A stretch of DNA of 63,784 bases, filler included, from Chrysochromulina tobinii (lineage: Eukaryota), in NCBI GenBank assembly GCA_001275005.1. It is 6 parts of 6 records of this genome, joined end to end, with 100 filler letters (N's around TTAATTAATTAA, not from the genome) between each part and the next. Parts side by side here need not be neighbours in the genome. Positions count along the whole stretch, not along the records: positions 1 to 17,150 come from JWZX01000106.1; positions 17,251 to 32,346 come from JWZX01000107.1; positions 32,447 to 43,970 come from JWZX01000108.1; positions 44,071 to 54,498 come from JWZX01000111.1; positions 54,599 to 62,494 come from JWZX01000116.1; 1 more part is not named here. The stretch is one strand, 5' to 3'. Both the position numbers and the translations under genes were made by a program. Shown piece by piece: positions 15,101 through 62,494 of the stretch; position 1 is the first letter of the stretch; each line of letters begins with the position of its first letter. The notes below the pieces were generated by a model. The model saw nothing but the letters and a program-made list of their open reading frames with translations. It ran no database searches and had not been told where the DNA came from.

Positions 15101-17150
15101 TCGTGGCCGAGAGCATCGCACGGCTCCTCGCGCCGAGCTGGGCGCCCGTCACGGCGCCCACTGAGGGCGCGCCGTCCTCGTCGTCGTCGTCGTTCGTGCC
15201 GGGGGTGGTCTTCGAAGGGTTGCCCATGGAGGTGGGCGAGCTCGAGGCTCTGCAGGCGGCGGGGCTCGCTCCGGAGCGCGTGCTCGTCGTCGGGCATGAT
15301 GACGGTGCACTCAAGGCGAAGCTCGCGGCCATGCTCGAAAAGGGGGAAGCGGCCTACAGCGCCACTGGCGAGGTGCTCGATGATGCGAAGCTCGACGCCG
15401 CCCTCGCCGCGTACGCAGCCGCGCTGCCGTCGCTGATGGACAAGTTCGCCGCCGCCGGCATCGCCGTCGTGACCCTCCCACCGGACGCAACCGCCGAGGC
15501 GGCCGCCGCAGCTCTCGATCCGTACGCGCCGTTGGCTGCGCCGGTGGAGGTGGGCGATACGGCCGAGCTGCCGCCGTTTGGGCCGGGCTCGCTTGGAGCC
15601 ACAGGGCCCTACTGCCCCGTCGCGCTCGCCACCGACGGGCGCCTGGTCAGGGGCAAGGCGGAGCTGGGGGTTACGATCGCGGGGCGTGTGTACCTATGCT
15701 CCAGTGAGGGCGCACGCGCACGGCTGCTCGCGGCGCCGGCCGCACTGCTGCCGCACCTGGACGGCCTCTCCGCGCCGCTCGTGCCGCCGCCGCCGCTGCT
15801 GCTGCTGGTCGGCCCTTCGGGCTGTGGAAAGGAGGAGCAGGCGCGCCAGCTCGACGCTGATTGCCACTGATGACCTGCCTTGCATGCAAGTGCTCACCAC
15901 AGCGCGTTCGGTTCTCGAGGAGCAGGCGCGCCGGCTGAGCGACGCTCGCAAGCTGCCGACGCTCGACCTGAGAGCTCTGCTGGCCTCCGACCCGCCCCCG
16001 CCGCCCGAGCTGCCGCCGCCGCCCGCGGACGGCGAGGATGGCACGCCGCCGGCCGAGAGCGACGTTGAGGCGTACGCGGAGCGTGTGGCGGAGCTCGTCG
16101 CGGCGGCCAAGGTGCACACGCCCACCCAGATCGCCGAGTGCGTCGCGCGCGCGCTCAAGACGGCGCCGTTCGCGGGCGTCGGTTGCGTGCTCGATTGGGC
16201 GTACGACGTGGCGCTCGATGGGACCATGTGGGAAGCGCTGCTGGCGGCCAAGCTGACCCCCGATGGGGTCGTCGTCTTCGAGCTGAGCGAGGACGAGGCC
16301 GACGCGCGCCTCTTCCGCCCAATGACGAAACCGACGATCTCGGAGGCGGAGGTGAAGATTCGGCGCGAGCGCGCCGTCGTGGCGCTCCGGGAGCAAGCGG
16401 ATGCCGAGGACGAGGGCGAGGACGGGACGGCCGGTCCGCTCAAGGCGCTCTTCGCCCTCGACGACCAGGCGCTCATCGAGGCGCGCGCGGCCGAGTTGCT
16501 CGGCACAGTGGGTCCGGTGAGTCGCGAGGAGGCCACCGAGGTGCTCGAGGGGATGCTCGAGGCGACCAACGCCGCCGACGAGGCGCAGCACGAGGAGCTG
16601 CGCGCCAAGAATGCGAGCGCGACCGCCACGTTGGAGGCGCTCGTCGAGGCGCTCGAGGCCAGCGCAGTGCCCGCATGCAAGCTGAGCGCCGAGCAACGGC
16701 CAGGCCAGCTGCACCGCGCCGTCCTGGGCGCGCTCGAGCCGCTCATCGGGCAGCGCGCGGAGCTCTTCTCTCGCGCGGCGCCGATTGAGCCGGCCGAGGC
16801 CGCCGCCATGATCGAGGCGGGCGAGGCGATCCCGAGTCGATTCGGGCGGCACGATGTGGTCATGTACGTAACCAAAGGCACGCTCTCGCCACCGCTCGTG
16901 CCGACACGTGGCAGTCTCAACCCTCCGCCGCCTCTGTCGGCCGAGGAGCTCGCGGCGGCGCACGCGGCGCTCGTCGAGGCGGCGGCGGCGGAGCACGCGG
17001 CAGCGGTCGAGGGCCTGGCATTGGTGCACGCGGCGGCGGTCGAGGAGGCAGCAGCGGCGCACGCGGCGGCGGCCGAGGCCGCGGCCACGGCGCACGCAGC
17101 GGCGGTCGAGGCGGCAGCCGCGGAGCACGCGGCGGCGGTCGAGGCGGGGG
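12103..17150 (+). CDS. Adenylate kinase 9-like protein (EF-hand-like N-terminus, YHS-like domains, degenerate P-loops); 3'-partial
   Basis: YHS-like WGTSCPVSL...FDGRLYLC...FLGSP and GPYCPVAL...GRVYLCSS alternate with P-loop-like GPPLSGAS and GPSGCGKE. GC-AG intron 15841-15925 joins GKEEQ|ARRLSD. Runs into the gap. Confidence 0.7.
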
Positions 17151-17250
17151 NNNNNNNNNNNNNNNNNNNNNNNNNNNNNNNNNNNNNNNNNNNNTTAATT
17201 AATTAANNNNNNNNNNNNNNNNNNNNNNNNNNNNNNNNNNNNNNNNNNNN
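17151..17250. other. Artificial contig linker
   Basis: N-run, TTAATTAATTAA (stops in all six frames), N-run; 100 nt in total. Confidence 0.97.
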
Positions 17251-32346: not shown

Positions 32347-32446
32347 NNNNNNNNNNNNNNNNNNNNNNNNNNNNNNNNNNNNNNNNNNNNTTAATTAATT
32401 AANNNNNNNNNNNNNNNNNNNNNNNNNNNNNNNNNNNNNNNNNNNN
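32347..32446. other. Artificial contig linker
   Basis: N-TTAATTAATTAA-N. Confidence 0.97.
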
Positions 32447-32448
32447 AA

Positions 32449-32485: not shown

Positions 32486-32697
32486 TGAAGCCCCATCTCC
32501 TTTCTGTCTGTCGAGCATGTACAAGAAGGTTTTCGACGCGTTGCACAGCAAAACTTGGATCATGACCCCTGTGCTTGTGGTCGGAACGCCGGGGACGGTT
32601 TCGTCGTGAGCCAAACTTCTTTTTTCTTTTGCACCCCGCCGAATATTGTCCAGACGCCTGTGCTGCTCGGATCCCTCGGGGTCTCACGGATCGCGTG

Positions 32698-33148
32698 ATG
32701 CCGGTCATGTCGTCACCGGATCCTCTGACGGCCTCACTCAAGGAGCTGTGTGACACGTCGGCCGCCGACATCTCAACTCTCTACTCCGTGCACGACGTAC
32801 TCGGCGAGGGCCGCTTCTCCAGGGTCTATGCGGCCGTGGATGAGAGGAACGGGCAGGTGCTCGCGTTGAAGGAGCTCGACATGAGCGCGATTGCGGAGGA
32901 CGAGGAGGCGTTCGATATGCTCAAGGCGGAGGTGCTTGCGCTGCGGCGCGCCGGCAACGCGCCGCACATCGTCCGGCTGCGCGAGGTCATCGCCTCGTCC
33001 GACGCCATCTGGCTTGCCATGGAGCGCGTTCCCGGCCGCGAGCTCTTCGAGGTGGTGTCGCAGCGCGGCGCGCTTGAAAACGGCATCGTGCGCCACTTGA
33101 TGCAGCAGCTGCTTACGGCGCTCACGGCGCTCGCCGAGCTCGGCGTGG

Positions 33149-33180
<32 letters not shown>

Positions 33181-35529
33181 GTGAGCGATGAGGAGACGGA
33201 GCGGCCGCATCTGACGCTCATCGACTTTGGGTACGCGGCGTTGCTCGGCGAGGCAGCAGATGGCGGTGGCGGGCCCATGGAGCTGACGGGCGTCGCCGGC
33301 TCGCCCGAGTACGCGGCGCCCGAGGTGCTCTCGTGGATTGAGGCGGAGGCGGACGCGACGGGCGAGGTGGAGGGCGAGCCATACGACGCAGGTTGCGACG
33401 TGTGGAGCGTGGGCGTGACGGCGCACGTGCTGCTGTGCGCCGCGATGCCCTTTGAGCTGCCCGAAGAGGCGACCGAGGCAGCGCTCGTCGCCGCCGCGCG
33501 CAACGTCGACCTCTCCTTCCACAGCCGTCCGGAACTCGAAGGCGACGCAATGGCGCCCACGCGCGACTTCGTGCGCGCTTGCATGACGGTCGCACGCAGG
33601 GAGCGCCCCTCGGCGGAGCAGCTGCTCGGCCATCCGTGGATCCTCGGGTCAAATCTCGGGACAAATCTCGGCCATCCGTGGATCCTCGGGTCAAATCTCG
33701 GGACAAATCTCGGCCATCCGTGGATCCTCGGGTCAAATCTCGGGACAAATCTCGGCCATCCGTGGATCCTCGGCCCACCGATGGCGCTCAACACGGCGCG
33801 TCAGGAGGAGCGCCCCTCGGCGTCCGTGCGCCCAACACGGCGCGAGCGCCTCGCGGCGGAGGAGGGCGTGTCGACGGGGGGCGCCATGCCTGAGGACGAC
33901 CTCGTGTTCCGTCGCCAGAGGGAGGATGACGAACGCCATCATCGGGAGGATGACGAACGCCATCAGGAGGACGAGCTCGAGTTCCGTCGCCAGGCGACCA
34001 TGCAGCGCCAGAGGGAGGATGAAGAACGTCATCAGCAGGAGGATGAAGAACGTCATCAGGAGGAGGAGGCCGCCAAACGGCTGCACGATGCTGAGGAGCT
34101 TGAGGCGCGGCGCCATCGTGAGGCGTTGACCGGTACCTACTCTGGCACCTTCTCTGACGCTGGGGCGACGTTGCCTAATTTGGACCAACGCAAGTATGGC
34201 ATCACCATCGCAGTCGGCACAGCCTCGCCGACGCGCGTGCACATCAACGCGGTCACGCCCAACACGGCGCCAACCAGCTGCCTCCTTCCCGACGCGAAGC
34301 CGCTGCCCAAGGTGGCTCGCGCCGCTCAGGACGGCGCCATGCAGGCCGTCAACCAACACGAACTCGCGGCGCACCTCGCCGCTGCAGTCAAATCCGCAGC
34401 TCTGACGTACTTCGTGCATGCTCACAGCCAGCGTACCAGTACTTCCCTTCAAGTGCTCGTCGGCCAGGTGCGAGCTCTGATGACCTCTGATGACCTCGCT
34501 GATGACCGCTGATGACCTCGTCGGCCAGGTGCGAGCTCTGATGACCTCGCCGATGACCCCGCTGATGACCTCGCTGATGACCGCTGATGACCTCGCTGAT
34601 GACCCCGCTGATGACCTCGCTGATGAGCCCGCTGTTGGCCGTGGATCGCCTCTGACCATCTCCAACGCCAACGCTCGCCTGCCAGGCACTGCTCGTGCGG
34701 CCGTTGCCACTGATGACCTGCCTTGCATGCGAGTGCTCACCACAGCGCCATCTCCCCACAGGCACTGCTCGTGCGGCCGTTGCAGACGCCTCCTCTTCCC
34801 ACAGAGCTCTCGAGTGCCAAGCTGACGCCTTCCCAGGCGGCCAGCTTGAAGCGCGACCTCAGCATCCTCTCGGCGAGGCTCACGAGGATCGTCAATGCGA
34901 CAAGGCGCGGTGGGTCAACTTGGCTCGTGAGGGAGGTAGGACAGGCTCTGATAGTCGCCGAGGAGCAGCCACTCCCCGACTGGTGGCACGCGTCCGGATC
35001 ACAGCGTTTGGGTGTGGTCCGGACGCAATCTCCCGCCACCGAGATCGCAATCTCCCCCGCGGCCGCAATCTCGCCCTCAGCTCCCTCATCTCCGAAGGGA
35101 GATCCGGTCACACCGCCACCCCTGCACTTCACACCACCACCCCTGCACTCGCAGCCGTCGCTCGGGTTACCGCCGCCAGCGACGAACGTGCCGAAACCGA
35201 TGAACGCGTCGGTGCGCCCGCCCTACGGCTTCGTCAGCCACGCCGAATGGGCCCCAGACGTACCCTTCATCTGCCACGCCTCGGTTTCGTCACCTCCCTC
35301 GCGTGCTCCCGGGCTCCCATCGTGGTGGTCAGACGCCTCGATGGGCGTCGCAACGGTGCGACCGGCCGCGGTGTCTGCCACGCACACCGACGAGACTGCG
35401 CCTCTGGTGGCCTCACAGGTGCTGGGAGCACTTGAAGGCACGGCGGGCGGCATTCCCGCGTGGTGGGCCCGGGAGAGCGCGAGGAGTGCGACCCCCCAAT
35501 CTCAGCGAGCGCATGTATTGACGGTGTAA
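32698..35529 (+). CDS. CAMK-group Ser/Thr protein kinase with long C-terminal extension
   Basis: GEGRFSRV, ALKE, HRDVKPEN, DFG, GSPEYAAPE, DVWSVGV, HPW. Compound intron 34468-34761 joins VLVGQ|ALLVRPL. Confidence 0.88.
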
Positions 35530-39347: not shown

Positions 39348-42073
39348 ATGCCGAAGAGACCACGAACCTCTGAAGTTGTGGCTGCTCTCTCTGGCATCGA
39401 GCGCGAACGAAGCGTTGGCATCGACTCGTACGCGAGCGCGCCCCTTCCGCTCCACCCGACCGGCCTCTTCCAGTCGCGATGGATTGATTTCCACGTTCGG
39501 GAGCTGGCAGAAGATGGAGTCGCCCTTTCACTGACCGACGTGCCACAGCAGGCAGACGCGTTGGCACCCTTGGCACACAGGCATCTGTGCTCGTTCGTAA
39601 TGTGCAAAGAGAATCGGACGACCTCAGATGCCTTGAGGCAGGTAGCGGCCGCAGCTGGCGTGCCTCTCTCGAGCCTCGCCGTCGCCGGCGCCAAGGACAA
39701 GCGAGCCGTGACGGTGCAACGCGTGACTGGCCGCGGCATCGACGCGCCGAAACTGCTGCGCGTGAACGACAAGTGGACAGCCGCTGGCAGCCGGGTGCGC
39801 GTCGGGCATTTCGCGGCCGCCGATCGCTCGCTCGGCCTCGACCAAGCGCGTGGAAATCAGTTTGTGGTCATCCTGCGCGACCTCGAGGTGACGTCCACTT
39901 GCCACGAGGCGCACGCGCAGGCGCCGGCAGGTGGAGCGGCTGGCGAGGCAGACGGCGATGGAACGGCTTCCATATTTGGCAACTCCGAGGGTCTGGGCGA
40001 GGTGGCGTGGCGCCGTAGCGGGCGCGCCGTCGCGGGCGAGGGTCTGGGCGAGGAGGCACTGCGAGGCGCATGCAGTGCCGCCCTCTCGCGCGTCGCGGCG
40101 GGCGGCTTCGTCAACTACTTTGGCTTGCAGCGCTTCGGCAGCGGCGAGGGCGTGGCCACGCATGCCGTCGGTGCCCTCTTACTACGCGGGGCATTCCGTC
40201 GGGGACTCCAAGCCATACTCGACCCGACCGCGCCCGGCCTCTCGGCGGCTGAGCGGGCGGCGCGCGCTCACTACGGCGCGACCGCGGACGCGGCGGCAGC
40301 GTTGCGCCTGCTGCCGAGGCGCGGCGGCCAGACGCTCACACAGAGGCTCCTTAGCTCCTATGCCGCTCGACTGTCGGCAGCGAGCACGGCGGCTGCTGAC
40401 ACGGCAGTTGCAGGCACGGCAGTTGCAGGCACGGCGGTTGCTGACACGGCAGTTGCTGACACGGCAGTTGCTGACACGGCAGTTGCTGACACGGCGGCGG
40501 CTGGTGCTACGGTAGTCGGTGCCGCATCGGCCGCGCATGCAAGTGATCACCACGGCGCGCGGCCATCAGCGGTAGCCACATCGGCCGCGCATGCGAGTGC
40601 TCACCACGGCGCTGCATCGGCTGGCGCCCTGGAGGCGAGTGCATTGGAGGACGCGGCGGCGGAAACGACTCTTTGGCGCCTCCCTTTTCGGGAGCGCTTG
40701 CTCTACGTGAATGCGCTCCAGTCGTTCGCGTTCAATCGCGCCGCCAGCTACCGCATCCGAATGAATGCGAGCACTCCCATCGAAGGCGATCTGGTGTGGG
40801 GAATGAATGCGAGCGCTCCCATCGAAGGCGATCTGGTGTGGGGAATGAATGCGAGCGCTCCCATCGAAGGCGATCTGGTGTGGGCGGCAGCCGGCGGCGG
40901 CGGTGCCCATGACGGCGCCCATTTAGGTGCCCACGACGGCGCGATCACGGAGGACGAGGGCGCCGACGTGAGCGCCGTCGTGGGCGCCGACGCCGTTGAA
41001 GGCGCCGACGACGTCGAAGGCTCGGCAGCGGCGGACGGGTTCGAGGACGATGGCGGCGGCGCTGTCGCTTCGGTCTCCGTCGGGCCTGCCGTGCGGGCGC
41101 GCGCGCTGTTGCCGCCTGCTGTGAAAGTGCTCAGCGCGGCGGAGGCAGCTTCTGGCCGTTACACTCTTGCGGACGTGCTGCTGCCACTCCCAGGTCACTT
41201 CGCCACGTATCCCCTGAGTGCCACTGAGTGCCTTCCTCATCAGGTCACTTTTCACCACTTATCTCCCGAGTGCCACTGATTGCCTTCCGCATCAGGTCAC
41301 TCACACCTTCCCATATCCCTGATTGCCACTGATTGCCACTGATTGCCTCCCCATCAGGTCACTCCGTCACCTACCCCGCGCACGGCGCCGGCGCCGAGTA
41401 CGCTCGGGTTCTGTCCGAGCTCAATCTCCGGCTCGATCTCCGGCTCGGCGCCACGACGGCGCTCCCAGCCGCGAGCTCGGAGCTCCCAGCCGCGAGGTGG
41501 TTTCAGGCAGGCCTCTTCGACCTGCCTGGCGGGTATCGTCCATTGCTTGCCTTCGCGTCGCGCTTGAGCGGCGCCGTACTCTCTTACACCGACCCGATCG
41601 CCGTGCTTGAGCGCTCGGATTTGGATGCCCTCGAGCCCAGAGCCACTGCCACGTCGACGGCGCCGTCACGAGCACCCGAGCGCTCGGATTTGGATGCCCT
41701 CGAGCCCAGAGCCACTGCCACGTCGACGGCGCCGTCACGAGCACCCGAGCGCTTGGATTTGGATGCCCTCGAGCCCAGAGCCACTGCCACGTCGACGGCG
41801 CCGTCCCGAGCACCCGAGCGCTTGGATTTGGATGCCCTCGAGCCCAGAGCCACTGCCACGTCGACGGCGCCGTCCCGAGCACCCGATGAAGCCGACGGCG
41901 GCTCGGCACGCAAACGCTTCGCGTGGCGGGTGAGCTTTGAGTTGCCTGCGTCGGTGTATGCGACCGTGTTCTTGAGGGAGCTCCTGCATCATCCCCTCGA
42001 TGCCGCGGAGGACGCGCGCCGCTCGAAAACAGTGCTCACCGCGAAAAATAAGACTCCGTTCGGTATCGACTAG
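39348..42073 (+). CDS. PUS7: TruD-family pseudouridine synthase
   Basis: AGAKDKRAVTVQ (catalytic Asp), GNQF, GFVNYFGLQRFG, LPGGYR, FELPASVYATVFLRE. Intron 41194-41357 joins LPLPG|HSVTYP. Confidence 0.92.
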
Positions 42074-42628: not shown

Positions 42629-43970
42629 TCAGTGCGTGGTGGGGATCTGACGGATGAGGGCCGCACGTAGCTCGACACGCCCTCGCAGATCCTGCAGCTC
42701 ATCAGCTGCCCGATCTGCCGCCTCGAGCTGCGCCTCGGCCGTGCGGTTGCCCGCAGCGGCAGCGGCGTGAGTGGCGGCGTCTGGGCGCGGCACAGCGGGT
42801 GCCTCTGCCGCGAGCTCGTCCTCGGCGGGTAGCGAGCCCCAGCGCGCTCCGTACCTGTGGGGAAGTGAGGGCGCCGTGGTGAGCGCTTGCATGCAAAGCT
42901 CGTCCTCGGCGGGTAGGGAGCCCCACGCTCCGTACCGGTACTCGTCGTGAATGCGCAGCGGGTGCGCTTCGGTGTTGAAGACGTACTCGCTCAGCGGGTA
43001 CTCGGAGCCGTCGCCGAAGAGCAGGTAGAGGTATTTGAGTGTCTCCGCGGTGAAGAAGGACTCCATGCGACCACCCTGTGGGGAAGAGGGAGGCACGGGG
43101 CGGAGCGCCGTGGTGAGCACTTGCATGCACGTTCCACTCGGGAGCAGTTGGCGTACCTCATCCTGGGGAGGAGGCACGAGCGTGACGTCCTTGAGCGGCA
43201 CGTATCCCCCCGTGGGAACCTTTGTATGAGTCTCGATGGCACCGAAGATGTGCCATCCCCATTCGCGATACTTCGGATCCCCGGTGAGCCGCCACAAGAT
43301 CAAAAGGCTCTCTGAAGTTTCAGGGCGCAGCAAAAAGTGCTTCGCCTGCTCCGCGGCGACCACGTGTGTCCGGTGACCAAAGGCGGCTATCTCGGGAGCG
43401 AGGCCCGATGGGCTATCCGCATACATGCGATAGCAAGTGTGCATGAGCTCGACGGCGAGCTCACGATCGGCGTCCGCGCGCGTGCCCTCCGCCCCGAGGA
43501 TAAGCATACCGGGGGCGAAGCAGGCGAGATGGTCCATCGTGTGTGAATACTCTCCGGTGCGGTGGTTCCATCGTGCCAGGTACGTGCAGTTACCACACCG
43601 GTCTGGGCCGCCGCGCCTCACGAGGCGCGCATGGATCGCCTCGACCGACGTGTCATACATTTGGCGCATCCGCTGATCGGTGCGCCCGGAGAGGATCCAT
43701 TGCTTCAGGAGGTATTCGTACAGCGAGTCGGCGCGCGCGCCGAGCGTCACCTCCTGCGACATCCACTGGCCAGTCTCCGGCGAGATGAACATGGGGTAGA
43801 GCCCGCGCGGCAAGTCGGACGGCCAGGCGCCCCCCTCCGGTGTGCTGCTCGAGGGTACCCCGTGCTGCAGCCGGCGTAGGTACGTCATGATACGCTGCGC
43901 CACTGCCTCGTACGCCGGGTTCCCTGTGTGGCGCGAGAGCGCTCGGAACTCGAGCTGCAGGGTGCCCACC
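42629..43970 (-). CDS. Class I alpha-1,2-mannosidase (GH47); 5'-partial
   Basis: GTLQLEF, LGARADSLYEYLLK, MDHLACF, LLRPETSES, MESFFTAETLKYLYLLF, FNTEAHP. Two 81-nt introns at 43076-43156 and 42855-42935. Confidence 0.93.
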
Positions 43971-47600: not shown

Positions 47601-48814
47601 GCGGGGCCCTCCCAGAGGCCAGCGAGGCCAAAGAGCTTGCCACGCAGCGCGAGCAGCAGCGAGTGGCCCTGCGGGTGCAGCACGAAACCGTCGAGATCAT
47701 CAAGGCACTCGGGGTGCCACGTGTCCTCTCGCACCCTGCTCACTCCCACCTTGAGCAACGGCAGCGGCTGCGGCGCCACCGGAGGGCGCACGCTCGCGGC
47801 GGCCGGCTCGAGCGCAAGCAGGTGCAGCTCGCCGCCGCGCATGTACACCAACACGCCCGAACCCGACGCGTCCGCGCTCAGCTCGCGCACGCCGAGCTTC
47901 TCGTGGCACGTGTGCTGTGCCACCGCCAAGGTCGTCGTCGCTGGCGGCGGCGCCGGCGGCGCGCCACTGATGGTTGCCTGAGCGACGGCGTCGGCGAGCG
48001 ACGCGCTCGAATCGGGTGTCGGAATCGAGTACACGTTCGAGACGCCCTCGTGGTCGGACACGAAGTAGAGCCGACCGCCAAACTCACACGGCTCACCCAC
48101 GTTCCAGTCTGCCGGCAGAGGCACGCGTGCAAACTCGCCACCGCGCCGGCCGTGCCACAGGTGGCCGCCCGCGCCACCGCGGTAGCCCTTCCACTGTGTG
48201 TGCGCCGGGTCCACCGTGTATCGCCCGACCAAATACGAGCCATCGCTCAGGTTGAGCAGGTGGTGGCTCACGCCTACGCCGAGCGGCGCAGGGCGGCCGG
48301 ACTGGCCGCTGGCGCCTGCGGGCCAAGGCTTCGACGACAAGGCTGGAAGAGCCACCGACCAGAGCTGCGTGAGATGCTGCATGGGCTGATCCGCGCTCGT
48401 GCGGAACAGGATGCGCGAGCCGTCGGCCGTCCAGCCTGCGACCTCGCAGCGCTCGCCCAGGTAGGTCAACCGCCTGGGCGCGCGTCCACGACCACGCGCA
48501 TCAACGACGAAAACCTCGGCCGGGCTGTGAGGATCGTCCTCATCAGATGGGGCAGAATATGCAAGATGCATGCCGTCGGGCGAGAAGCGCGGGTAGCAGC
48601 AGCCTCCATGGGTTGTGAGGCGTGCACAGATGGTGGCACTCACGGTGGCATCCGCTACTTGGTTCGCAAGCATGGTCGGCAAGGTGGCAAGCCATATGTC
48701 GCCCTCCGAGACGAAGGCGAGCTGCTGGCCATGCAGCGCAGGATGACGCGCGTAGCCTTCCGGCGAGTCGCCGGGCATTGTGCGACGATCGGAGGCGTCG
48801 CTCGGGGCCTCCAT
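44603..48814 (-). CDS. Tricorn protease homolog (peptidase S41B; beta-propellers, C1, PDZ, C2)
   Basis: YARHPAL...FVSEGDIW, WKGYRGGAGG, EWQQMFYEAW, GELGASHAY (His), GYVHVPDM, IDLRGNVGG, CSDGE (nucleophile Ser), SWGGVIG, ENRG. Intronless, 1403 aa. Confidence 0.9.
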   Translation of the reverse strand: MEAPSDASDRRTMPGDSPEGYARHPALHGQQLAFVSEGDIWLATLPTMLANQVADATVSATICARLTTHGGCCYPRFSPDGMHLAYSAPSDEDDPHSPAEVFVVDARGRGRAPRRLTYLGERCEVAGWTADGSRILFRTSADQPMQHLTQLWSVALPALSSKPWPAGASGQSGRPAPLGVGVSHHLLNLSDGSYLVGRYTVDPAHTQWKGYRGGAGGHLWHGRRGGEFARVPLPADWNVGEPCEFGGRLYFVSDHEGVSNVYSIPTPDSSASLADAVAQATISGAPPAPPPATTTLAVAQHTCHEKLGVRELSADASGSGVLVYMRGGELHLLALEPAAASVRPPVAPQPLPLLKVGVSRVREDTWHPECLDDLDGFVLHPQGHSLLLALRGKLFGLAGLWEGPAVQCGASEGMRYACPEFTHKGRPVAAVCGPAGEWALELFDELYPSQVAPTATGNGGGGRPPSRTLTLRGSSSSSSGGGSGSGGGGGIGGGGGGGAGGGGDGGGGGALGEPYEMRASPTEDWIAVATHDLRLLLVDLRSARFSCVDTAAHDGGIFDLAWSADGHWLAYAVATSSGARTSAIRMCDAAAVMEMAARGAGGTGERTGERVVEVTSGVTRDTSPSFDPQAQYLAFLSTRSLRPSEDEVFWQFNFSRAQRPFLALLTEDATDPTRPPPRPPGWRPEDDETEDDEDDDEDDRGGRRRGGGGGGGGGGGGGGRGGRGRRDDESDDEDDEDEDDVPMVRVDAAGLATRIVSVPVRAGRLEKLACLWDNQLLYTRLKPSDAGGDGGVGGSGLRGDDGVGGADEETGAMMRCALSTCKEVRLVDNVLDFELSLDLATMALLTDEEGLLRVRVYEAGAKPAEEDDDELEVDFEQPGERSGLVDVEGRVCLTVDPRREWQQMFYEAWTAAVRHAHPSITAGLAPRAILGTYEPLLARVASYDELLDVLQEMCGELGASHAYVSAPECDGDDEDEGRQGSLGCTTEWDASLQGWRIISMVRGDPYDESQAGPLTRAAVGAKVGDALLAINQLRLTASMPPEVAMRRLAGKEVYVTLRPAGSSFTPAGQSGGGGGADGGKARGKARAKGGDGGGGGGKGGKGGKGGGKGGGKGGGGIGGGKDGGAGGGGKAAGSAADRSTRVRVGSTSLVRRGRYLDWVIGCRELVHARTGGKVGYVHVPDMEESGYAHFSRQFLAECHHARRVLLIDLRGNVGGVTSDVLVAKLTQRRVAIEQPPHGRPDSIPCHATPARLIVLVDENTCSDGELLGAELAAVAGALLVGSPSWGGVIGMGETELVDGTTVSHPSYAVRMDSGAALENRGLRPTVHVEAAPHDAMRGRDALLEAAIAQANELVAASERADAERGAVAGTDAEWTPIVRPHLHWSLTMLLPTREATPIRVASP

Positions 48815-49367
48815 TCAGTGTCCCGTGACCCGTAGGAATTCCACACCGCAGACGGCCGCAGACGGCTGTTTCATCAAAATCTGGAAGCACGAGCCGAGGA
48901 TAACTACCCGACTACCCCGACCGCCCCGACCGCCCCGTTTCGGCGAGTGTAACAAAAACAAATCACACAAAAAATCGAAAACGCCTATCATAAGTAATTC
49001 CTACGTGTTATCCGGAACTTATCCGGATAGAAGTCACGCAGTAACAGTGCCGTAGCACCGGCTGTCGCGTCTGTCGTGTTAACGTTCACACAGACACACA
49101 TTCACATTCACACACACACATTCACACCATGGCGGGTACCGCGCGGGGGCGGTTTTAGAAGGGCGACATGCCCATGGTGAGCTTGAAGCTCATGGCGGGA
49201 GCGCGAGGAGTATGGTAGTTGCGTCCGCGAGAACGACGGCTGCGTGTCCCGACGCCCCCATTCACAATGAGAAAGGAGGGGCGTGTTCCTTCGCAACAGC
49301 ACAGACCTCGCGCTGCTCGACACGACGCGATTGGCACCCTTTTTTTCTCGTAAGTGGCCTCACCACG

Positions 49368-49552
49368 ATGGTGTCCCCTTTCGATCGCGTGGCCGCCGAC
49401 GAGATCCACCAGATCCTGACGCTAACTGGCATGACGGGGCTTTGCGTCGTCTTGCCACGCGTGTCGAAGGAGATGAAAGCCCATGCCGCCGCGGCGCTCT
49501 GCAGCATGGAGCACATTGAGATTTCAGCATACGATTCTGTTTGGCATTCTAG
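49368..49552 (+). pseudogene. F-box-like 5' gene fragment fused to a retrotransposon
   Basis: MVSPFDRVAADEIHQILTLTGMTGLCVVLPRVSKEM resembles an F-box. The sequence switches abruptly to copia RT at 49553. Confidence 0.5.
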
Positions 49553-52500
49553 CATGATCGCACGCGTGGACAAACCAATATACGGCATCCAGCAGGCCGG
49601 CCGCCGCCTCCAACGCAAGCTCTTCGACTGGCTGCGCGCCAAGGGCTTCCAGGCGCTCGACGATTCCGACCCTTGCGTCTTCAAGCTCACGTGCGTCAGC
49701 GGCGAGATCCTCACCATTGGCGTCCCCTCGCTGCGACCGGGGACCCACACTATGGCCGCGGCCGTGGCCGTGGCCGCGGCCGCGGCCGCGGCTCTGGCCG
49801 CGGCGAACAAGTACCGCGCGTCGAGCCTCCGCGCGACGCGGACGGCCGCATCACCCACTGGATCGCGGGCATGGTGTGGGCATCGCGGGCGTGGCATCAC
49901 CCTGCTCCACGTGCAAGCAAAACCACCTCCACCGCGATTGCCCAAAGTGGGTAGACTCGACATCAAAGCGAAGGCGCCGACCACCATGGCACAAGCGATC
50001 GAGTACGTTGACGCGATCCTCAAGACCAATGTTCGCATCGCCGAACTCGACACGATCAACAACGGCTCGGTCGGCGCCGCCCTCGCCGCAACGCGGGCCG
50101 CAGAAGACACACGCGTCGCCGAGCTCGAGGCTCGCGTCGCACAGCTCGCTGCCCTCGCTGCGACCGGGGACCCACACTATGGCCGCGGCCGTGGCCGTGG
50201 CCGCGGCCGCGGCCGCGGCTCTGGCCGCGGCGAACAACCGCGCGTCGAGCCTCCGCGCGACGCGGACGGCCGCATCACCCACTGGATCGCGGGCATGGCA
50301 CCCTGCTCCACGTGCAAGCAAAACCACCTCCACCGCGATTGCCCAAAGTGGGTAGCCGAGCAAGCCGCCAAAGAGGCGACCAACGCGACCGCGCAAGCCA
50401 AGAAGGAAACCGCGCCGCTCGAGGCACGCGTATTCGAGTGCGACGGACTCGACGAGACCAACCTGGCCGCCCTCCTCGGCACCGTCTTCCCGGACACATC
50501 GGTGCATAAGGGGGGCCCGACGGGACCGGTACCGAGTCCGGAGCAAGAGGCCGAACAGGCGGGACCGGAGGTGGACCTTAACGATTTCTTCACCTATTCG
50601 CGCGTCCTACCGGTACCAGACGACCTTCCAATTTCGGGCGATTTTCTTCGCGATGCAAAATTCTCTTGCATCCAAGGAATCGCACCGAATCTTGCCCCTA
50701 TTTGGAAAGGAGGCGCAAGCAGTACGCCAACGCAACAAATTTCGCAATTGGCCGAGCAGCCCACCGTGGATAGTTGCGACTCTCGCCCGTCACCTTGCAA
50801 CTCTTATCCATTCCCGCCGCCGCCAAATCCTTCGCCAACGCCCAGCCTGCTCACCGCTCTCGTCGCAAACCCTTCTCCGCCATCGCCAAAACGCTTGAAA
50901 GCCACAATCCAGCCGACCTGCGAAGAACCGACCGGTGGCCGCATCATCAGCGGCGCCGTCGACTCGGGGTGCACTGGGCACGTCACGCCCAACCCACACT
51001 GGCTCGTCAACCGCCGCCCGTGCACTGACACGTTCCGTGCAGCCGCCGGCTCCAAACACGTCGCCGCCGAAATCGGCGACATGCCCGTAATTGCTCGCGA
51101 CAGACACGGAGGGCTCCACTACAAACTCATCACGAACGTGCGTTGCGTGCCTACCTTCGCGTACACGCTCCTCTCCGTCGGCCAACTCTGGCTTGAGCTC
51201 AAAATTGACTCGCTCTTCGCGGACAGCCTCTGCTGCCGTCTCCACGACGGTACCGAGCTTCCCTATGTACGCGAGAAGCAACTGCCGACGCTGCTACTCG
51301 TCAGTGTCGCCGGCTGTGACCCCGACGCCATCGCTCGCAGCACCACCCGCAGCACCGCGCAATCCTCACCAACCATCACCGCCCTCACGCTCACCAGCAT
51401 CTCCGCTGCCCCACCCAACCCTGCCCCTGCCTCGAATACGTCGGGCCTCTCGACCAGGCACCTCGGACACCACTCTGTCCACTCCTCCGCGCACATCGCT
51501 CGACTGCCGGCTGCCCAAGCCGGCGAGCTCATGCATCGACGCTGCCACGCCAGCTTGCGCTACATCCAGGCCATCGCCAACACCACCGCCGACGGCCCTC
51601 GCAACGTCGCCTCCGCTCCCGCCATCAACTGCGCCAGCTGCGCCGAGGCTCGCATCACCCAAGCCGCGCACCGCGGCACCCTTTCGACGCCAGCTCCCGA
51701 GGCCGGCGTTCTCCACGTTGACCTCAAGGAAATGGTCATCTCCGCCGAGGGCTTCCGCTACTTCCTCGTCGCCGTTGACGAATTCACGAGATTCATCTTT
51801 ATTGCCTTCCTCAAATACAAGTCCGAGGCCGGCGCCGAGCTGCTCGCCATCGTGAACAAATTTAACGCCACGGTTGGCACCCCCGTCGACGCCGATGGCC
51901 GGGCCCTGCTACGGCCTCGCGTGCGCACCCTCCACTCTGACCGCGAAGGCAAGCTCATCTCGCACTCGTTCCGCTCGGCGCGGACCTCCGCGGGCCTTCA
52001 TCACACGCTCAGCCCTCCGCACGACCACGACCTCAACCCTATCGCAGAACGGGCTATCCGCACCCTCGCCGAGACCGCCTCCGCCATCAGGGTCGCTTCC
52101 AATGTGTCCGCGCGCCATTGGCCGCACATCATCGCGTACGCCGCCGACTGGCACAACTCACTCATCGGCTCCGTCGGCTCCTCCACCGCCGACAGCAATA
52201 TCACGCCTTACCAGCGCTTCACGCTCCGCCCGCCTCGTGTCATGGACCTTGCTACCTTTGGCTGCCGCGCATTCGCCCTCAAACCGCCGCATCTCCAGCA
52301 CAAGCCCAGCCTCGACGGCCGCGGGCGCGAGGGCGCCTTCTTAGGCCGCTCCCTCAACTCAAAAGGATGTTACGACGTCCTCGTCGGGAGCGGCGCCGCA
52401 GCTTACGTCATCAGCTCCTCCAGCGTTGTCCTCGACGAGGAGTGGATGCCGCTGCATCCAGTCGGCAAACAACACCGGCCACTCACCTCGCTCGCACACG

Positions 52501-54498
52501 CTGCCCACCCGCCGCAGCTCCCCAGCCTAGAGGCTGACTTTCCCAATGACAGTGCTGCTGTCGCTCGCCCCCCAGCCTTCGACGCGCGCCTGCAATTCGC
52601 TGCGGAGTCTCGGAGTTCCCTCCCCATGCCTCTCGACCACGCGAACTCACAACAGCGCGATTCGCCCTCAGCGGCGGGCGGGGCCTCGCCTTCGCCGGCG
52701 CCCTCGCCACTCCCTCCGCCCGACAGCCCCACAGCCCCCATACGTCGCCTCGTCTTCCCCGACCTAACCGCCGCGACTAGCCCCCGCAGCGAAGCCCTCT
52801 CATGGAAGCTTGCCGGCCAGGAGGCCTCTGCCGCCTTACGAGAGCATGAACGTGCACTGCTCCCCCCACGACGGCCCCCGGGCGCCACCGTCAACTACTT
52901 CCCCAAACAGCCGACCCACCGCCCATTCGGCCCCAAATGGCTCCCGGCAGTCTCCGATGCACCTATTCGAGCCGTCCCGGTGGTAGCGCCTGAGCTCGAG
53001 CCTCCCCCGACTCTCGAACCCATTCCAGAATCGCCCACCGCTGAGGACTCTTATGAGCCATATGAGCCTGCCTCGCCTCTGGCGGCCGCCATGCGGCACG
53101 AGGAGATGCTCGGCGCCCGCGCGGCGCTCCACGCTTACCTCGACGGCTACCTCGAAGCCGCTCTTGCCCACCGCCATAGCGCCAGCCCGCCGCCTCGCCC
53201 CTCGTCTGCCTCCTCCTTGGAGGCCGCCGTCGCCGAGTCCATTTACGACGCGCACCATCGACGGCCTGTCGCAGGCACTCTCGAGATACCCATCTCCGAA
53301 TGGCGCAACGTCCCCAAGGTCCCGTTTGGCAAGAGCCCCGGCGACCACGCGCTCTTCCTCGACATCGCGCTCGACGAGCACGACTTCAAATCGCCCGACA
53401 CCATACTCGACGGCATCCGCGCCAGCTTCCTCACCGCGCTCCGCGCCGACTCGCCCGACGCACCCGCAACGCACTCAGAGGCTGTCAAACGTGGCGACGT
53501 CTGGATGCGCGCCGAGGCCAAAGAGCTAGCAAACCACGAAGCCAACGGCTCCTGGACGTTTGTGCGCCGTGCTGACGTGCCAGCCGGCCGCCGTATCCAC
53601 CGCCTCATATGGGTCTACAAGGTCAAGCGCGACGGCACCTGCAAAGCCCGCCTGTGCGTCCAGGGCTCCACCCTCGAACCCGGAGTCGACTACGACCAAG
53701 TCTTCTCGGCCGCCCTCCGCTACTCATCGGCGCGCTCACTCTTCGCCTTCGCGGCCAAGACAGGCTGCCGTGTACGCAGCGTCGACCTCGTTGCCGCCTA
53801 CCTGCAGGGCGATTTCCTCGACGGTGAAGTTGTGTACTGCCACGCGGCACACGGCTACCCCAAGTACGATGAGCACGGCGAGCCCATGATCGCACGCGTG
53901 GACAAACCAATATACGGCATCCAGCAGGCCGGCCGCCGCCTCCAACGCAAGCTCTTCGACTGGCTGCGCGCCAAGGGCTTCCAGGCGCTCGACGATTCCG
54001 ACCCTTGCGTCTTCAAGCTCACGTGCGTCAGCGGCGAGATCCTCACCATTGGCGTCTACGTTGACAACCTCCAGATCGTGCACTCAGTCGAACTTGATGC
54101 ACAAGGTCGCGGACCCGCCGGCTGCGCGTACAACAAGTTCATGGACGACCTCCAACGCGAATGGACAGTCACCGACGAGGGCGACATGGAGGACTTGCTT
54201 GGCATCGAAGTCGAGCGCTTCAGTGACGGCTCAATCAAGCTCCACCAGACTAAGTACATCAACAAGGTCATCGAGCGCTTCCTACCCAACGGCCCATCGT
54301 CCCACGTCCAGCGTAACTCCATGCCCTACTCGTCCCTCTTCGAGACTCGGATGAAAGACGCGCTTGCTCTTGACGCCGGCACCTATCCCGACCTTATCAC
54401 CACATTCCAGCAGCGCATCGGATGCCTCATGTACGCGGCCACCTCTACACGGCCTGACATCGCATATCCTGTCCATCAGCTCTGCAAGTGCCTGCAAC
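49553..54498 (+). mobile_element. Ty1/copia LTR-retrotransposon gag-pol (5' rearranged, 3' cut by gap)
   Basis: Zn knuckle CSTCKQNHLHRDC, protease VDSGCTGH, integrase HVDL/VDEFTR/HSDREG/NPIAER, then RT WVYKVK...KARLCVQG, YGIQQAG, YVDN, TRPDIAY. Order is PR-INT-RT. No LTR visible. Confidence 0.93.
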
Positions 54499-54598
54499 NN
54501 NNNNNNNNNNNNNNNNNNNNNNNNNNNNNNNNNNNNNNNNNNTTAATTAATTAANNNNNNNNNNNNNNNNNNNNNNNNNNNNNNNNNNNNNNNNNNNN
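54499..54598. other. Artificial contig linker
   Basis: N-TTAATTAATTAA-N. Confidence 0.97.
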
Positions 54599-57798: not shown

Positions 57799-60700
57799 AT
57801 GGGAGGCGAGGGCCGCACGAGGAAGCTCGCCGCGGGGATGACCAAGGACGACATCCCGCGCATCATCAAGGAACTCAAGAGCGCTCCTCAGGACGGCAAG
57901 GAGAAGTCCGCGTACCTGCTCGACATCATGGCCGAGCAGGAGGAGAACGTCAAGGCGATGGTGAAGGCGGGCGCGATCGGGCCGCTCGTGGAACTCGTCG
58001 CCTCGGGCAATGACGGCGGCCAAATCCACGCCTGCTCCACTCTCGCGCAGATCGCGCTCGCGGAGACCGACTTCACGTCAGAGGGGAATCCGCGTGATGC
58101 GATCGTGCTCGCAGGGGCGATCACGCCGCTCGTGAGCGTGCTGCGCAGCGGCTCGGAGAAGGCGCAGATGCACGCCGCCGCCGCCCTCGCCTCCCTCTCT
58201 GAGGACCCAGAGAACCAGATGCCCATCATCAAGGCCGGCGCGATCGCGCCGCTCGTCCGCCTACTCCGCGTTGGGACTGACGATGCCAAGATCTCAGCGG
58301 CCGACTGCGTGGCGAACGTGTCGGCGGCGAATATGGAGGCGCAGGCGGCCGTGCATGCGGCGGGCGCCGTCCCACTCTTGCTCGAGATGCTCAAGGGAGG
58401 CAAGGCGCAGCAAGCGGCTGCCAACGCCCTCGCGAAGCTTCTCTGGCCAGGTGATGACCCCTGATGACATATCTGATGACCGCTGATGACCGCTGATGAC
58501 CGCTGATGACCCCTCGGAATATTGCATGCTCGCCCTCGCGCCTCGCTGCTCTGGCCAGGTGATGACCCCTGATGACCGCTGATGACCGCTGATGACCGCT
58601 GATGACCGCTGATGACCGCTGATGACCCCTCGAATTGCATGCTCACCCTCGCGCCTCGCTGCTCTGGCCAGGCCCGGACCTCTCTCTTGCGGCCAACGTG
58701 GCCATCCAGCTATCGATCCTGGAGCAGGGCGGCATCGCACCGCTCCTCGCTCTGCTCAACGGCGTGTCGGATAAGGCGCAGGTCTCCGCCGCCGAAGCAC
58801 TCTCCCATGATGACCTCTGATGACCGCTGATGGCCGCTGATGACAAGGCACCGGTCTCGGCTGCCGAAGCGCTTCTCTCATATGGCTGACCCGCCTGGCA
58901 TGCAAGTGCTCACTACGGCGCTTCACACACCCGATTCACAGGTCTCCGCCGCCCGAAGCGCTCTCCAATGTGGCACGGAGCAACGTGGACACCCAATCGG
59001 AGATCGCCAGGGCGGGGGGGCATCGGGCCCCTCCTCGCCATCGTCACCTCCCGCAACCCAAACGCGCAGGCACATGATGACCCCTGATGACCCCTGATGA
59101 CCCCTGATGACCCCTGATGACCCCTCGAAGGGCGGCAAGCTCACCCTATCCCGCAACCCACACGCCTAGGCCCGAGGCGCGAGCGCCCGAGTGCTCACCA
59201 CGACGCCTCGCTGCTTCCCCACAGGCCCAAGGCGCGAGCGCTCTAGCACAGCTCTCCCGATTCAACCGTGACAACCAGGACTCTGTGGCGCGTGCTGGGG
59301 GCATCAAGCTACTCGTAGAGCTGCTCGCGCCCCACCACCCTCTCGACGTCCAGGTGGGTGCCGCTGATGACTCACCTGATGACCCTTGATGAGCACTGAT
59401 GCCTCCTGACGACCCTGCACACCCCTGGATGGCCACTTTCATTGCATGCGCGGCCCTCCCGACGTGCAGGCCATGGCCGCTCTCGCTGTGGCCTCTGATG
59501 ACCTCTGATAACCTCTGATGACCTCTGATGACCTCTGATGACCTCCCTCATCAGGCCATGGCCGCTGTGACCTCTGATAACCTCTGATGACCTCTGATGA
59601 CCTCTAATGACCGCTGATGACCTCTGTTGACCTCCCTCATCAGGCCATGGCCGCTCTCGCTGTGACCGAGATCAGCCGCAACAACTTCGCCAACCAGACC
59701 GCGTGTGCCGACAACGGGGCCATCGGCTCGCTCGTGGCGCAGCTGCGCCTGAGCGGCGCGAGGGGTGCCCGAGATGCACTCTCCCGAGATGCACTCTCCC
59801 GAGATGCACTCTCCCGAGATGCAATCTCCCCGGCGGTGCCAGGCACGGAGGAAGTGAAGGCAGAGGCGGCGGGCGCGATCTGGGTCCTCTCCGAAGGGCA
59901 CGTCGAGAACAAGATCGCCATCGCCAGCGCCGGTGGCATCGCGCCGACGGTGAGCTTGCCTTGGGAGAGGCTCATGATTACGGGCGGAGCCGTCGATCGC
60001 ACCATGATTGCACCCTGATTACGCCATGATCGCGCCATGATTGCGCCACGATTACGGGCGGAGCCGTCGATCGCACCATGATTGCACCCTGATTACGCCA
60101 TGATCGCGCCATGATTGCGCCACGATTACGGGCGGAGCCGTCGATCGCACCATGATTGCACCCTGATTACGCCATGATCGCGCCATGATTGCGCCACGAT
60201 TACGGGCGGAGCCGTCGATCGCACCATGATTGCACCCTGATTACGCCATGATCGCGCCATGATTGCGCCACGATTACGGGCGGAGCCGTCGATCGCACCA
60301 TGATTGCCAGTGGACGCCCGCCGAGTTTGATATGGACGTCCCTAATTTGGCAGGTGAGCCTGCTCGAGACGGGCGGAGCCCGGGCCCAATTGCATGCAGC
60401 GAACGCGCTCGCGTCGCTGGGCTTCCAGAACATCGACAACCAGCGCCAGATGTCGATGCTGCTGGTGAGTCTCCTCGGCACTGGGGGCGTTGAGGGCGCC
60501 GTGACGGGCACCGAGGCGACAGCGAGGGCTGGACGGTCGACGGAGGCCAAGTCGAACGCCGCCGCAGCGCTCTGGCGCCTAGTGCGTGAAAACCCGAACT
60601 CGATCGAGGAGGTGCGATCTCCCTTGATGAGCACTGATTGCTTGACTGAATGGCGCCTAGTGCGTGAAAACCCGAACTCGATTGAGGAGGTGCGATCTCC

Positions 60701-62494
60701 CTTGATGAGCACTGATTGCTTGACTGAATGGCGCCTAGTGCGTGAAAACCCGAACTCGATTGAGGAGGTGTGTGTGCGCGTGGCCTCTGAGGACCTCTGA
60801 CTGACTTTTGATGACCTCTGACGACATCTGACGACATCTGACGACATCTGACGACCTCTGACCCTCTGATTGCATCCCTAATCAGGTGGCCAAGGCGGGT
60901 CCGACCTCCGATCTGATCTTCCTCCTCAAGCACGGCACGACCGAGGCGCGCGCGTACGCCCTCTGGTCGCTCTCGCTCTCAATTACGGAGAGCAATCAGA
61001 AGACGCTACTCGATGAGGACGGCGTCGAGCCGCTCGTTAAGTCGTTACACTCGCCCGTACAGGTGACGGCCACTGATGACCACTGATGACCGCTGATGAC
61101 CGCTGATGACCGCTGATGACCGCTGATGACCGCCGATGACCGATGATGACCGCTGATGACCGCTGATGACCTCTCTCATTGCATGCGCCCCACTCGCCCG
61201 TCCAGATCACGAGGCAGCAAGCGGCCGCCGCCCTCGCGAGCCTCGTCAAGAACAATGCGAAGGCGCAGATTGCAGTCGCATCCAAAGGCGGGATTGAACC
61301 TCTCATCAAGATCATCTCCGCACCGGCGCCGTCTCCTCCTGCGCTGCCACCCTCAGCGCACGAAGAAGCGGAGGCGCAGTTGCCTAATATGGGCACGCCC
61401 CCAAAACAGCTCACCCCTACCGTCGACCTCACAGTGCAGCTGGTGACCGAAGAGGATACGATGGACTCGAAGCAGTGCGCCGCCGCCGCCGCGCTCTCTG
61501 ACCTCTGCCTTGCATGCGAGTGCTCACCACGGCGCGACCTCCTCCCTTCCCACAGGTACGCCGCCGCCGCGCTCTCCGACCTCGCCCTCGTCGCCGCCAA
61601 CCGCGACGAGGTGGTCGAAAAGAACGGCATAATGCCGCTGGTCAGTTTGCTGACCGTCGCCGACAACGAGGGCAAACTCCTTGCCGACAAGGCCAAAAAG
61701 TTCGCCGCGGCGGCGCTCGCGCGACTAGCGGATGGTCATCAGCAGACTGCGGCCGACATTGCCCAGGTGCCCAACTGATTGCCTCCCTCATCCAACTGAT
61801 TGCCCGCTGGGTACAGGCGGGGGCCCTCCTCCCACTGATGACCTCTTGATTGACTCGTGATTGCCTCCCTCATTAGGCGGGCGCCATCCCCCACCTCTTG
61901 ATGACCTCTTTTGACTCGTGATTGCCTCCCTCATCAGGCGGGCGCCATCCCCCACCTCGTCGGTCTGCTCGACGGCACGTGTGGGGACCCGGCCCAGGAG
62001 GAGGCCGCTGGTGCCCTCTTCTCTCTCGCGGACGACAACTCGAACCGGCTCGCGATCACCGAGGCTGGCGGCATCGGGCCTCTCGTCGAGTTGCTCGGCA
62101 GCCGTAACTCGCGCGCTCGCAAGCATGCGGAGGTGGGACTGCTCCCCTGTCACTGATTGCATGCGGAGGTCACTGATTGCATGCGGAGGTGGGACTGCTC
62201 CCCCGTCACTGATTGCCAGTGAGCTCAGCCCTAATTTGGGCAGTGAGCTCGGCCCTAATTTGGGCAAGTCGCCCTCTCCGATGACCTCCCTGATGACCTC
62301 CCAATGACCTCCCTAATGACCTCCCTGATGACCTCCCAATGACCTCCCTAATGACCTCCCTGATGACCTCCCAATGACCTCCCTAATGACCTCCCTGATG
62401 ACCTCCCGATGACCTCCCTAATGAGTCCTTAATGGCAGGGCGCCCTCGTACGTCTCTCCCTCGAGTCCGCCAACCGCGCTCTCATCATCAAGAA
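57799..62494 (+). CDS. Armadillo-repeat (Vac8-like) protein with about 11 introns; 3'-partial
   Basis: Repeated AGAIxPLVxLL...AAxALxxL. Hand-placed introns: 58451-58671, 58782-58941, 59070-59224, 59354-59643, 59756-59842, 59950-60353, 60612-60885, 61063-61205, 61475-61555, 61767-61937, 62133-62438. Two homopolymer +1 errors (about 58953 and 59017) are needed to keep frame. Confidence 0.85.
59976..60307 (+). repeat. Intronic 74-bp minisatellite, about 4.5 copies
   Basis: Unit gattacgggcggagccgtcgatcgcaccatgattgcaccctgattacgccatgatcgcgccatgattgcgccac. Confidence 0.9.

What the first reader, a model, noticed from the sequence alone, without database searches (positions are those of the whole stretch)
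15855..61555. Shared intron core TGCATGC(A/G)AGTGCTCACCAC(A/G)GCG...CACAG in four unrelated genes (introner-like family)
Seen: near-identical cores, always in the sense orientation of the host gene, at about 15881-15905 (AK9-like), 34724-34761 (kinase), 42855-42897 and 43076-43130 (GH47, minus strand), and 58898-58941, 59189-59224 and 61511-61555 (ARM). The copies near 15863 and 34705 share TGCCACTGATGACCTGCCTTGCATGC(A/G)AGTGCTCACCACAGCGC. The core contains a branch-point-like CTCAC. Inference: a mobile branch-point/3'-splice-site cassette from a common template.
Basis: partly seen in the sequence, partly recalled or inferred. Interest (0 to 1): 0.85.

Follow-up and report, generated by a model that had tools for sequence, protein, structure and literature searches.

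The report
Introns built from copied exon pieces
Genes of a freshwater alga (Chrysochromulina type) carry many short introns made of one shared piece of sequence plus a 10-55-base copy of the neighbouring exon, and these were likely created when DNA copying briefly jumped to another intron and back, a way of making introns in bulk that published screens would likely miss.

Summary
RNA contigs show the kinase copy and both GH47 copies spliced out. A metagenome scan gave 161 copies at 144 sites, and a Chrysochromulina parva gene model carries the element. It is not a plain 3'-splice-site cassette. Of 136 sites analysed, 66 carry the acceptor and mostly take the donor from a copied exon start, 35 carry a fixed donor cassette and mostly take the acceptor from a copied exon end, and 35 have no recognised splice signal; some of these are in-frame or antisense. 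74 of 98 single-core sites have a flanking duplication, against 0.4% in permutations. One subfamily sits only at look-alike targets. Best reading: homology-guided copying from existing introns, filtered by splicing (0.5); RNA-templated copying is the main rival. It fails the published introner test (both ends alike), and the 2025 survey lists zero families for C. tobinii. The scan earlier noted one such intron in another genome (e1-9728496).

The parts
15841..15925 (+). Predicted 85-nt GC-AG intron, donor-cassette type, in a P-loop (adenylate-kinase-like) gene; core 15881-15904; member of the subfamily whose targets end in GAGCAG
   Evidence: Sequence; removal restores the frame after the P-loop motif; same tail in five other genes; not tested by RNA
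34468..34761 (+). 294-nt GT-AG intron of the protein kinase gene; core 34724-34747; a 25-nt perfect repeat (34683-34707 = 34759-34783) spans an older acceptor, so the insertion renewed the 3' splice site
   Evidence: RNA joint skipping 294 nt, GT..AG, in runs X1 and X2; repeat; frame
40534..40611 (+). Two exonic, in-frame copies of the core in the Ala-rich loop of TruD; no splice sites
   Evidence: one RNA-run contig covers 40466-40832 without a gap at depth 3.1; the peptide occurs in 13 of 13 close alleles whose loop could be parsed and in 0 of 6 distant homologues
42855..42935 (-). 81-nt GT-AG intron of the GH47 mannosidase gene, acceptor type; its first ~40 nt copy the start of the next exon; core 42872-42895
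43076..43156 (-). 81-nt GT-AG intron of the GH47 gene; core 43106-43129; only a 9-nt match to the upstream exon
58782..58941 (+). Predicted 160-nt intron of the ARM gene; head copies the next exon's start, then CTGAT/CTGAC repeats, core 58897-58920, acceptor
   Evidence: not tested by RNA
59070..59224 (+). Predicted 155-nt GC-AG intron of the ARM gene; partial core 59182-59205 preceded by a 14-nt copy of the next exon's start
   Evidence: not tested by RNA
61475..61555 (+). Predicted 81-nt GT-AG intron of the ARM gene, acceptor type, 25-nt copy of the next exon's start; core 61511-61534
   Evidence: also present in a 94%-identical allele, L069; not tested by RNA
5905..5920 (+). Partial core (16 nt) inside an open reading frame, no splice signals nearby
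   Evidence: not followed further

Best explanation
This is a family of short spliceosomal introns, each made of a shared core plus a 10-55-nt copy of the adjoining exon, likely created when DNA synthesis at a break or stalled fork leaves the gene, copies 25-55 nt from an existing family intron elsewhere, and rejoins the gene a little behind where it left. Shown: the shared core, the duplications, the three classes, splicing of three window copies, and in-frame exonic copies. Inferred: the jump is guided by short homologies; any existing copy, not one master element, can be the template; and splicing acts as a filter. Products in coding sequence would persist only if the copied exon start supplies a GT/GC donor (acceptor type), the copied exon end supplies an AG (donor type), or the frame is kept (splice-less type). 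No element-encoded enzyme is needed.
For: (1) Duplication: 74 of 98 single-core sites score >=12 between their own flanks, against 0.4% of 4000 permuted pairs; 27 of 74 are perfect. Length is variable, 12-55 nt in 45 acceptor-type sites, and the copy begins GT in 38 and GC in 4. (2) Mirror classes: in donor-type sites the upstream exon ends in AG in 27 of 31; the core variant tracks the class (27 A:8 G against 7 A:59 G). (3) Target homology: six unrelated genes share one 21-nt tail and all six targets end in GAGCAG, against 15 of 1198 AG|GY sites in the flanks; L005 and L056 form a second such pair. (4) Chain copying: L080 carries the intron head that L045 derived from its own exon. (5) Microhomology: 7 of 12 filler-free, non-tandem acceptor junctions overlap by >=3 nt against 11% simulated; alleles L061 and L109 differ by an 82-nt unit whose ends share 7 nt. 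(6) Splice-less copies include antisense ones in long frames (L012, L090), so insertion does not need splicing. (7) No terminal inverted repeat or stable fold (z -0.96 to 0.64 in 5 of 5). (8) The window is rich in short tandem duplications (121 overlapping rows).
Against: 31 of 45 acceptor-type junctions show 1-31 nt of unexplained filler, so the microhomology count rests on a subset chosen afterwards. One junction often falls exactly on a splice site, which excised-intron RNA would explain as well as selection does. Sense bias persists in splice-less copies (20 sense, 7 antisense, 8 uncalled), though some of these are introns my motif rule missed. All sites were found with an exact 24-nt pattern, so boundaries inside the core cannot be seen. 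No empty-site allele was found among 18 overlapping locus pairs. Why this one core is so common is not explained beyond copy number feeding on itself.
Confidence: 0.5

Rival explanations
1. Excised introns or pre-mRNA are the template: a reverse transcriptase primes on a staggered nick whose end pairs with the RNA, as in target-primed retroposition, giving long variable duplications and truncated copies.
For: Variable long duplications and truncation resemble non-LTR retroposition (established knowledge, recalled). Donor-type copies start at the GT and acceptor-type copies end at the AG, the two ends of an excised intron. The GAGCAG subfamily fits priming on 3'-end homology. Both cross-gene templates seen are intron-internal. 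A Copia-type reverse transcriptase is encoded in the window.
Against: No poly(A) or tRNA-like head was seen, and Rfam gives no match at curated thresholds. Copies truncated at the 3' end or at both ends are as common as 5'-truncated ones. Local tandem re-duplications of whole introns (L005, L040, L097, L061) need no RNA.
Confidence: 0.27
2. The 53-nt donor cassette is a conventional non-autonomous DNA transposon (introner), and the other classes are its decayed or locally rearranged descendants.
For: Chrysochromulina introners that carry the 5' site and co-opt the 3' site from a 4-bp duplication are published (10.1101/2022.06.06.494994, Fig. 2C legend). 26 of 136 sites keep 26-29 nt of the cassette upstream of the core.
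Against: Duplications are 10-55 nt and variable, not fixed; no inverted termini; the 3' end is locus-specific; acceptor-type copies outnumber donor-type and carry a different core variant.
Confidence: 0.15
3. The core is a splicing signal homogenised among old introns by gene conversion or selection; the introns themselves are not new.
For: 10 of 45 acceptor-type insertions sit at or in an existing intron, as does the kinase copy; TTGCATGC and CTGAT/CTGAC repeats recur in core-less introns.
Against: 35 of 45 are in exon context, 32 of them open across the spliced junction. The GH47 intron head is a copy of conserved coding sequence. Exonic and antisense copies exist.
Confidence: 0.08

Closest known systems
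Introners of Chrysochromulina sp. and Emiliania huxleyi (Gozashti et al. 2022, 10.1101/2022.06.06.494994 / PMC9860276; 2025, PMC12130899)
   Same: Families of look-alike introns in haptophyte genes that carry one splice site and co-opt the other from a target duplication. E. huxleyi has 5-6-copy families of unknown mechanism of both polarities, one noted with 10-bp terminal direct repeats.
   Different: The published Chrysochromulina example has a 4-bp duplication and similarity at both ends. Here the duplication is 10-55 nt and forms one end of the intron, both polarities share one core, and splice-less copies exist. The 2025 table gives C. tobinii zero families. I could not compare sequences with the marine Chrysochromulina families.
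Intron gain by tandem genomic duplication (reviewed in PMC3443670, passages)
   Same: A duplicated exon segment supplies a splice site without changing the protein.
   Different: There the duplicate supplies both sites and nothing foreign is inserted; here a shared core from other loci supplies the branch region and the other site, at many loci.
Daphnia pulex neointrons from repair of staggered double-strand breaks (PMC4202315, passages)
   Same: New introns with a direct repeat of the adjacent exon end at the opposite end.
   Different: Daphnia repeats are 4-12 bp and the source of most inserts is unknown; here repeats are longer and the insert is one recurring intron-derived sequence.
Intron transfer, and sister (stw)introns of Hypoxylaceae (PMC3443670; PMC9024468, PMC8469720, passages)
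   Same: Introns copied between loci; microhomology-mediated repair invoked; a 10-nt palindrome inside the element (here TTGCATGCAA).
   Different: Transfer was described between paralogues; here it appears to use 6-14 nt of homology between unrelated genes. Sister introns have long inverted repeats; these do not.

Membership tests
Introner (Gozashti et al. 2022 definition) | Many sequence-similar introns in non-paralogous genes | tested here: met
   144 distinct sites from 161 copies; four unrelated window genes plus TruD
Introner (Gozashti et al. 2022 definition) | Spliced from mRNA | tested here: met
   3 of 3 predicted intronic copies in the stretch laid; the other four window copies and all metagenome sites were not tested
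Introner (Gozashti et al. 2022 definition) | Similarity begins within 5 exonic or 10 intronic bases of both intron ends | tested here: not met
   Criterion read. One end is a locus-specific exon copy in 45 of 66 acceptor-type sites and most donor-type sites; only small subfamilies are alike end to end
Introner (Gozashti et al. 2022 definition) | Creates introns at previously intron-less positions | tested here: inconclusive
   Anatomy implies gain (35 of 45 in exon context; GH47), but no empty-site allele or orthologous gene DNA was obtained
TIR DNA transposon / MITE | Terminal inverted repeats | tested here: not met
   No significant fold in 5 of 5 sequences; none seen in the listed sites
TIR DNA transposon / MITE | Fixed short target-site duplication | tested here: not met
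   12-55 nt, continuous spread
SINE / non-LTR retroposon | Variable-length target duplication with truncated copies | tested here: met
SINE / non-LTR retroposon | Structural-RNA-derived head, and a 3' tail shared with a partner LINE | tested here: inconclusive
   No Rfam match at gathering score in the window; three chance-level matches, E >1, in four loci; a partner LINE could not be sought without the genome
U2 spliceosomal intron | GT/GC...AG ends with a branch point upstream of the acceptor | tested here: inconclusive
   Ends confirmed by RNA for the kinase intron; branch at CTCAC inferred from distance only

The most novel reading that the evidence does not exclude
Chrysochromulina makes new introns on a genome scale without any transposon: its own introns seed new ones by homology-guided copying into unrelated genes, half of each new intron being cut from the target exon itself. 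Such chimeric introns are invisible to end-to-end introner screens, so this route may account for many intron gains of unknown source in other lineages.
Probability: 0.35. Interest if true: 0.85.

Novelty: new variant of a known kind. Interest (0 to 1): 0.67.

Why it matters
Where new introns come from is a long-standing question, and bulk gain is now credited mainly to transposons. Here a family of roughly a thousand copies (rough estimate) shows the footprint of each birth: the copied exon piece, the template piece and, in some cases, the template lineage. The genus is cultured and sequenced and has many wild alleles in public data, so rates, templates and DNA-versus-RNA copying can be tested directly. 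It also explains mis-annotation: gene models read through the element, giving peptides such as TLIATDDLPCMQVLTTA in predicted proteins.

Tried and rejected
No whole genome is held for the window, so there is no genome-wide count. The core has 0 exact matches in viral contigs and 0 in prokaryote genomes. Rfam: nothing; a snoRNA origin for the TGATGA-rich cassette is unsupported. Folding: no hairpin. A first strand-calling model was too strict (22 sense, 0 antisense, 79 uncalled of 101; 4, 3 and 28 of 35) and was replaced by a codon model. Depth pile-ups over the cores (about 500-900 against about 5) show many copies but are no copy number. Cluster look-up gave no species name. No RNA data were obtained for the ARM or P-loop gene copies. 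No presence/absence allele of a whole intron was found; six pairs were aligned by eye out of 18. The idea that similarity is only a generic branch-point consensus was rejected: 24 identical bases at 144 sites. Paper searches for this architecture in haptophytes found nothing; the library lacks most subscription papers, the C. parva genome paper was not seen, supplement files 13-14 of PMC12130899 were not searched, and the PMC9860276 supplement is cut and holds no sequences in the rows seen.

Full report
Observation. A 24-nt core with up to 5 mismatches occurs 9 times, against a mean of 0.1 in 20 Markov simulations. Two further copies lie at 40534 and 40588 and a partial one at 5905. The window is six contigs joined by N linkers. 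Pfam names the kinase, ARM and TruD genes; the GH47 protein's best named relatives are Prymnesium parvum (60%) and Emiliania huxleyi (54%). 'AK9-like' rests on a P-loop only. A Chrysochromulina parva gene model contains the read-through peptide of cassette plus core, and window GC is close to the 63.4% given for C. tobin (PMC4580454 passages). I therefore infer a freshwater Chrysochromulina; the species was not determined.

Splicing. Four runs were laid on 32490-43970. RNA runs X1 and X2 skip 294 nt with GT..AG ends, the kinase intron 34468-34761. One X2 contig spans the GH47 copies with 149 letters between 42844 and 43156, exactly 311 minus two 81-nt introns (arithmetic; the middle piece itself is not listed). 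X15 and X16, of unrecorded kind, read through these introns without gaps and behave as DNA of a related strain. One X2 contig crosses the TruD copies without a gap at depth 3.1, which is weak because RNA libraries can hold DNA. The spliced GH47 protein is collinear with homologues; the head of intron 42935-42855 is a copy of conserved coding sequence, so this intron arose inside an exon. The ARM and P-loop gene introns are predicted only.

The family elsewhere. An exact-match scan of metagenome contigs stopped at its limit with 136 loci from 6 of 64 parts: 161 copies, 144 distinct sites, 136 with enough flank to analyse. The 17 repeats among 161 draws imply about 750 exact-core sites if sampling is even (my arithmetic); 21 matches in 15 long contigs chosen for having one give 1 per 44 kb. 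Both point to the order of a thousand copies; neither is a census.

Three classes (motif rules). Acceptor type, 66 sites: core, pyrimidine tract, mostly CACAG. In 45 of 66 an ungapped copy of the downstream exon, starting at its first base, lies ahead of the core; it begins GT in 38 and GC in 4, is 12-55 nt long, and gives introns of 57-95 nt in all three phases. 35 of the 45 are in exon context and 10 at or in an older intron, like the kinase copy. Donor type, 35 sites: a fixed 29-nt cassette GTACGTTGATTGCCACTGATGACCTGCCT precedes the core; 31 have a recognisable donor, 27 of these follow an exon ending in AG, and 21 have a copy of the exon end scoring 8 or more, some being whole-intron tandems. 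Splice-less, 35 sites: several lie in long open frames. In TruD the peptide is present, in 1-3 copies, in 13 of 13 close alleles whose loop could be parsed (one as a variant) and in 0 of 6 distant homologues; two other close proteins could not be parsed. Excluding tandem arrays, 74 of 98 sites have an own-flank duplication scoring 12 or more, against 0.4% of permuted pairs and 32 of 400 random window positions under a similar ungapped score. Old introns of this organism were not available as a control, and three core-less ARM introns also end in 10-15-nt exon copies, so the footprint is not unique to this core.

Orientation. A codon model, right in 73 and wrong in 0 of 81 overlapping control points, calls splice-bearing sites 88 sense, 1 weakly antisense, 12 uncalled, and splice-less sites 20 sense, 7 antisense, 8 uncalled (Fisher p 1e-4). 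Three antisense calls are backed by an antisense frame (L012, L090, L051); one (L021) conflicts with a long sense frame.

Clues to mechanism. Six genes with unrelated far flanks, the window's P-loop gene among them, share a 21-nt tail that ends in GGAGCAG; all six targets end in GAGCAG, against 15 of 1198 AG|GY sites in the flanks. These are whole introns copied into look-alike sites; the genes are Glu-rich, which raises the local chance somewhat. L005 and L056 are a second pair. L080 carries a head that matches the L045 intron, itself a copy of the L045 exon, so copies serve as templates for later copies. Of 45 acceptor junctions, 14 have no filler; leaving out 2 tandem arrays, 7 of 12 overlap by 3 nt or more against 11% simulated (p 1e-4); the other 31 have filler I could not source. 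Alleles L061 and L109 differ by an 82-nt cassette-plus-exon unit bounded by a 7-nt shared word. There is no inverted-repeat fold, no Rfam family and no exact match in viral or prokaryote collections.

Explanation. One process accounts for all classes: synthesis leaves the gene, copies part of a family intron, and returns 10-55 nt behind its exit. Exit after an AG gives the donor type, return at a GT gives the acceptor type, and other products persist only in frame or outside coding sequence. The anatomy is shown; the jump, its enzyme (polymerase-theta-type end joining or fork template switching, recalled knowledge; search listing only) and the filtering are inferred. I put this at 0.5, RNA-templated copying at 0.27, a conventional transposon at 0.15 and homogenisation of old introns at 0.08.

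Comparison. Introners that carry one splice site and co-opt the other are known in Chrysochromulina MAGs, with a 4-bp duplication in the figured case (bioRxiv 10.1101/2022.06.06.494994; parts 1, 2 and 4 of 5 and passages read; supplement rows of PMC9860276). That pipeline demands similarity at both ends, which this family fails. The 2025 survey (PMC12130899; passages and supplement rows) lists C. tobinii with zero families and E. huxleyi with two small families of unknown mechanism and opposite polarity. So this works like an introner but is not one by the published test. It combines tandem-duplication gain, break-repair gain and intron transfer (PMC3443670, PMC4202315, PMC9024468, PMC8469720; passages). 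Seven searches found no description of this family; gaps are listed under Tried and rejected. The scan's own notes hold one intron of the same build in another genome and no sequence look-alike.

Verdict.

Noticed in passing
window 17151-17250, 32347-32446, 43971-44070, 54499-54598, 62495-62594: Artificial N linkers with a short stop-codon spacer join six contigs; gene order across them means nothing.
   Followed up: yes
window 58451-62438: ARM introns are filled with 10-12-nt tandem repeats of CTGAT/CTGAC words, 66 on the sense strand against 8 antisense; one array is 90 nt longer in allele L069. They look like multiplied branch-point motifs and share modules with the donor cassette.
   Followed up: partly
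window 58451-58558, 59354-59469, 61063-61205: Core-less introns that also end in a 10-15-nt copy of the upstream exon end, each with TTGCATGC before it: the same build with other inserts.
   Followed up: partly
window 58942-59069: This predicted ARM exon changes frame twice relative to the ARM repeat pattern: assembly error or a broken allele.
   Followed up: partly
window 49083-54497: Copia-type polyprotein (integrase, RVT_2) open for 1805 codons up to a contig end; a possible reverse transcriptase source.
   Followed up: no
window 44606-48814 (-): Uninterrupted 1403-codon tricorn protease (S41, PDZ, PD40) frame, a mostly prokaryotic family by recalled knowledge; possible lateral transfer.
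   Followed up: no
window 40385-40884 and 41609-41886: TruD coding sequence holds several in-frame tandem repeats (15, 42, 69 nt); the 15-nt array varies in copy number among alleles.
   Followed up: partly
L007:27-185, L029:701-772, L057:701-818, L062:701-763: The core is part of short tandem units (39-48 nt), some in frame, so it also seeds minisatellites.
   Followed up: partly
window 4642-5021 and 41191-41358: Intron ends duplicated in tandem two to three times, giving several candidate acceptors.
   Followed up: no
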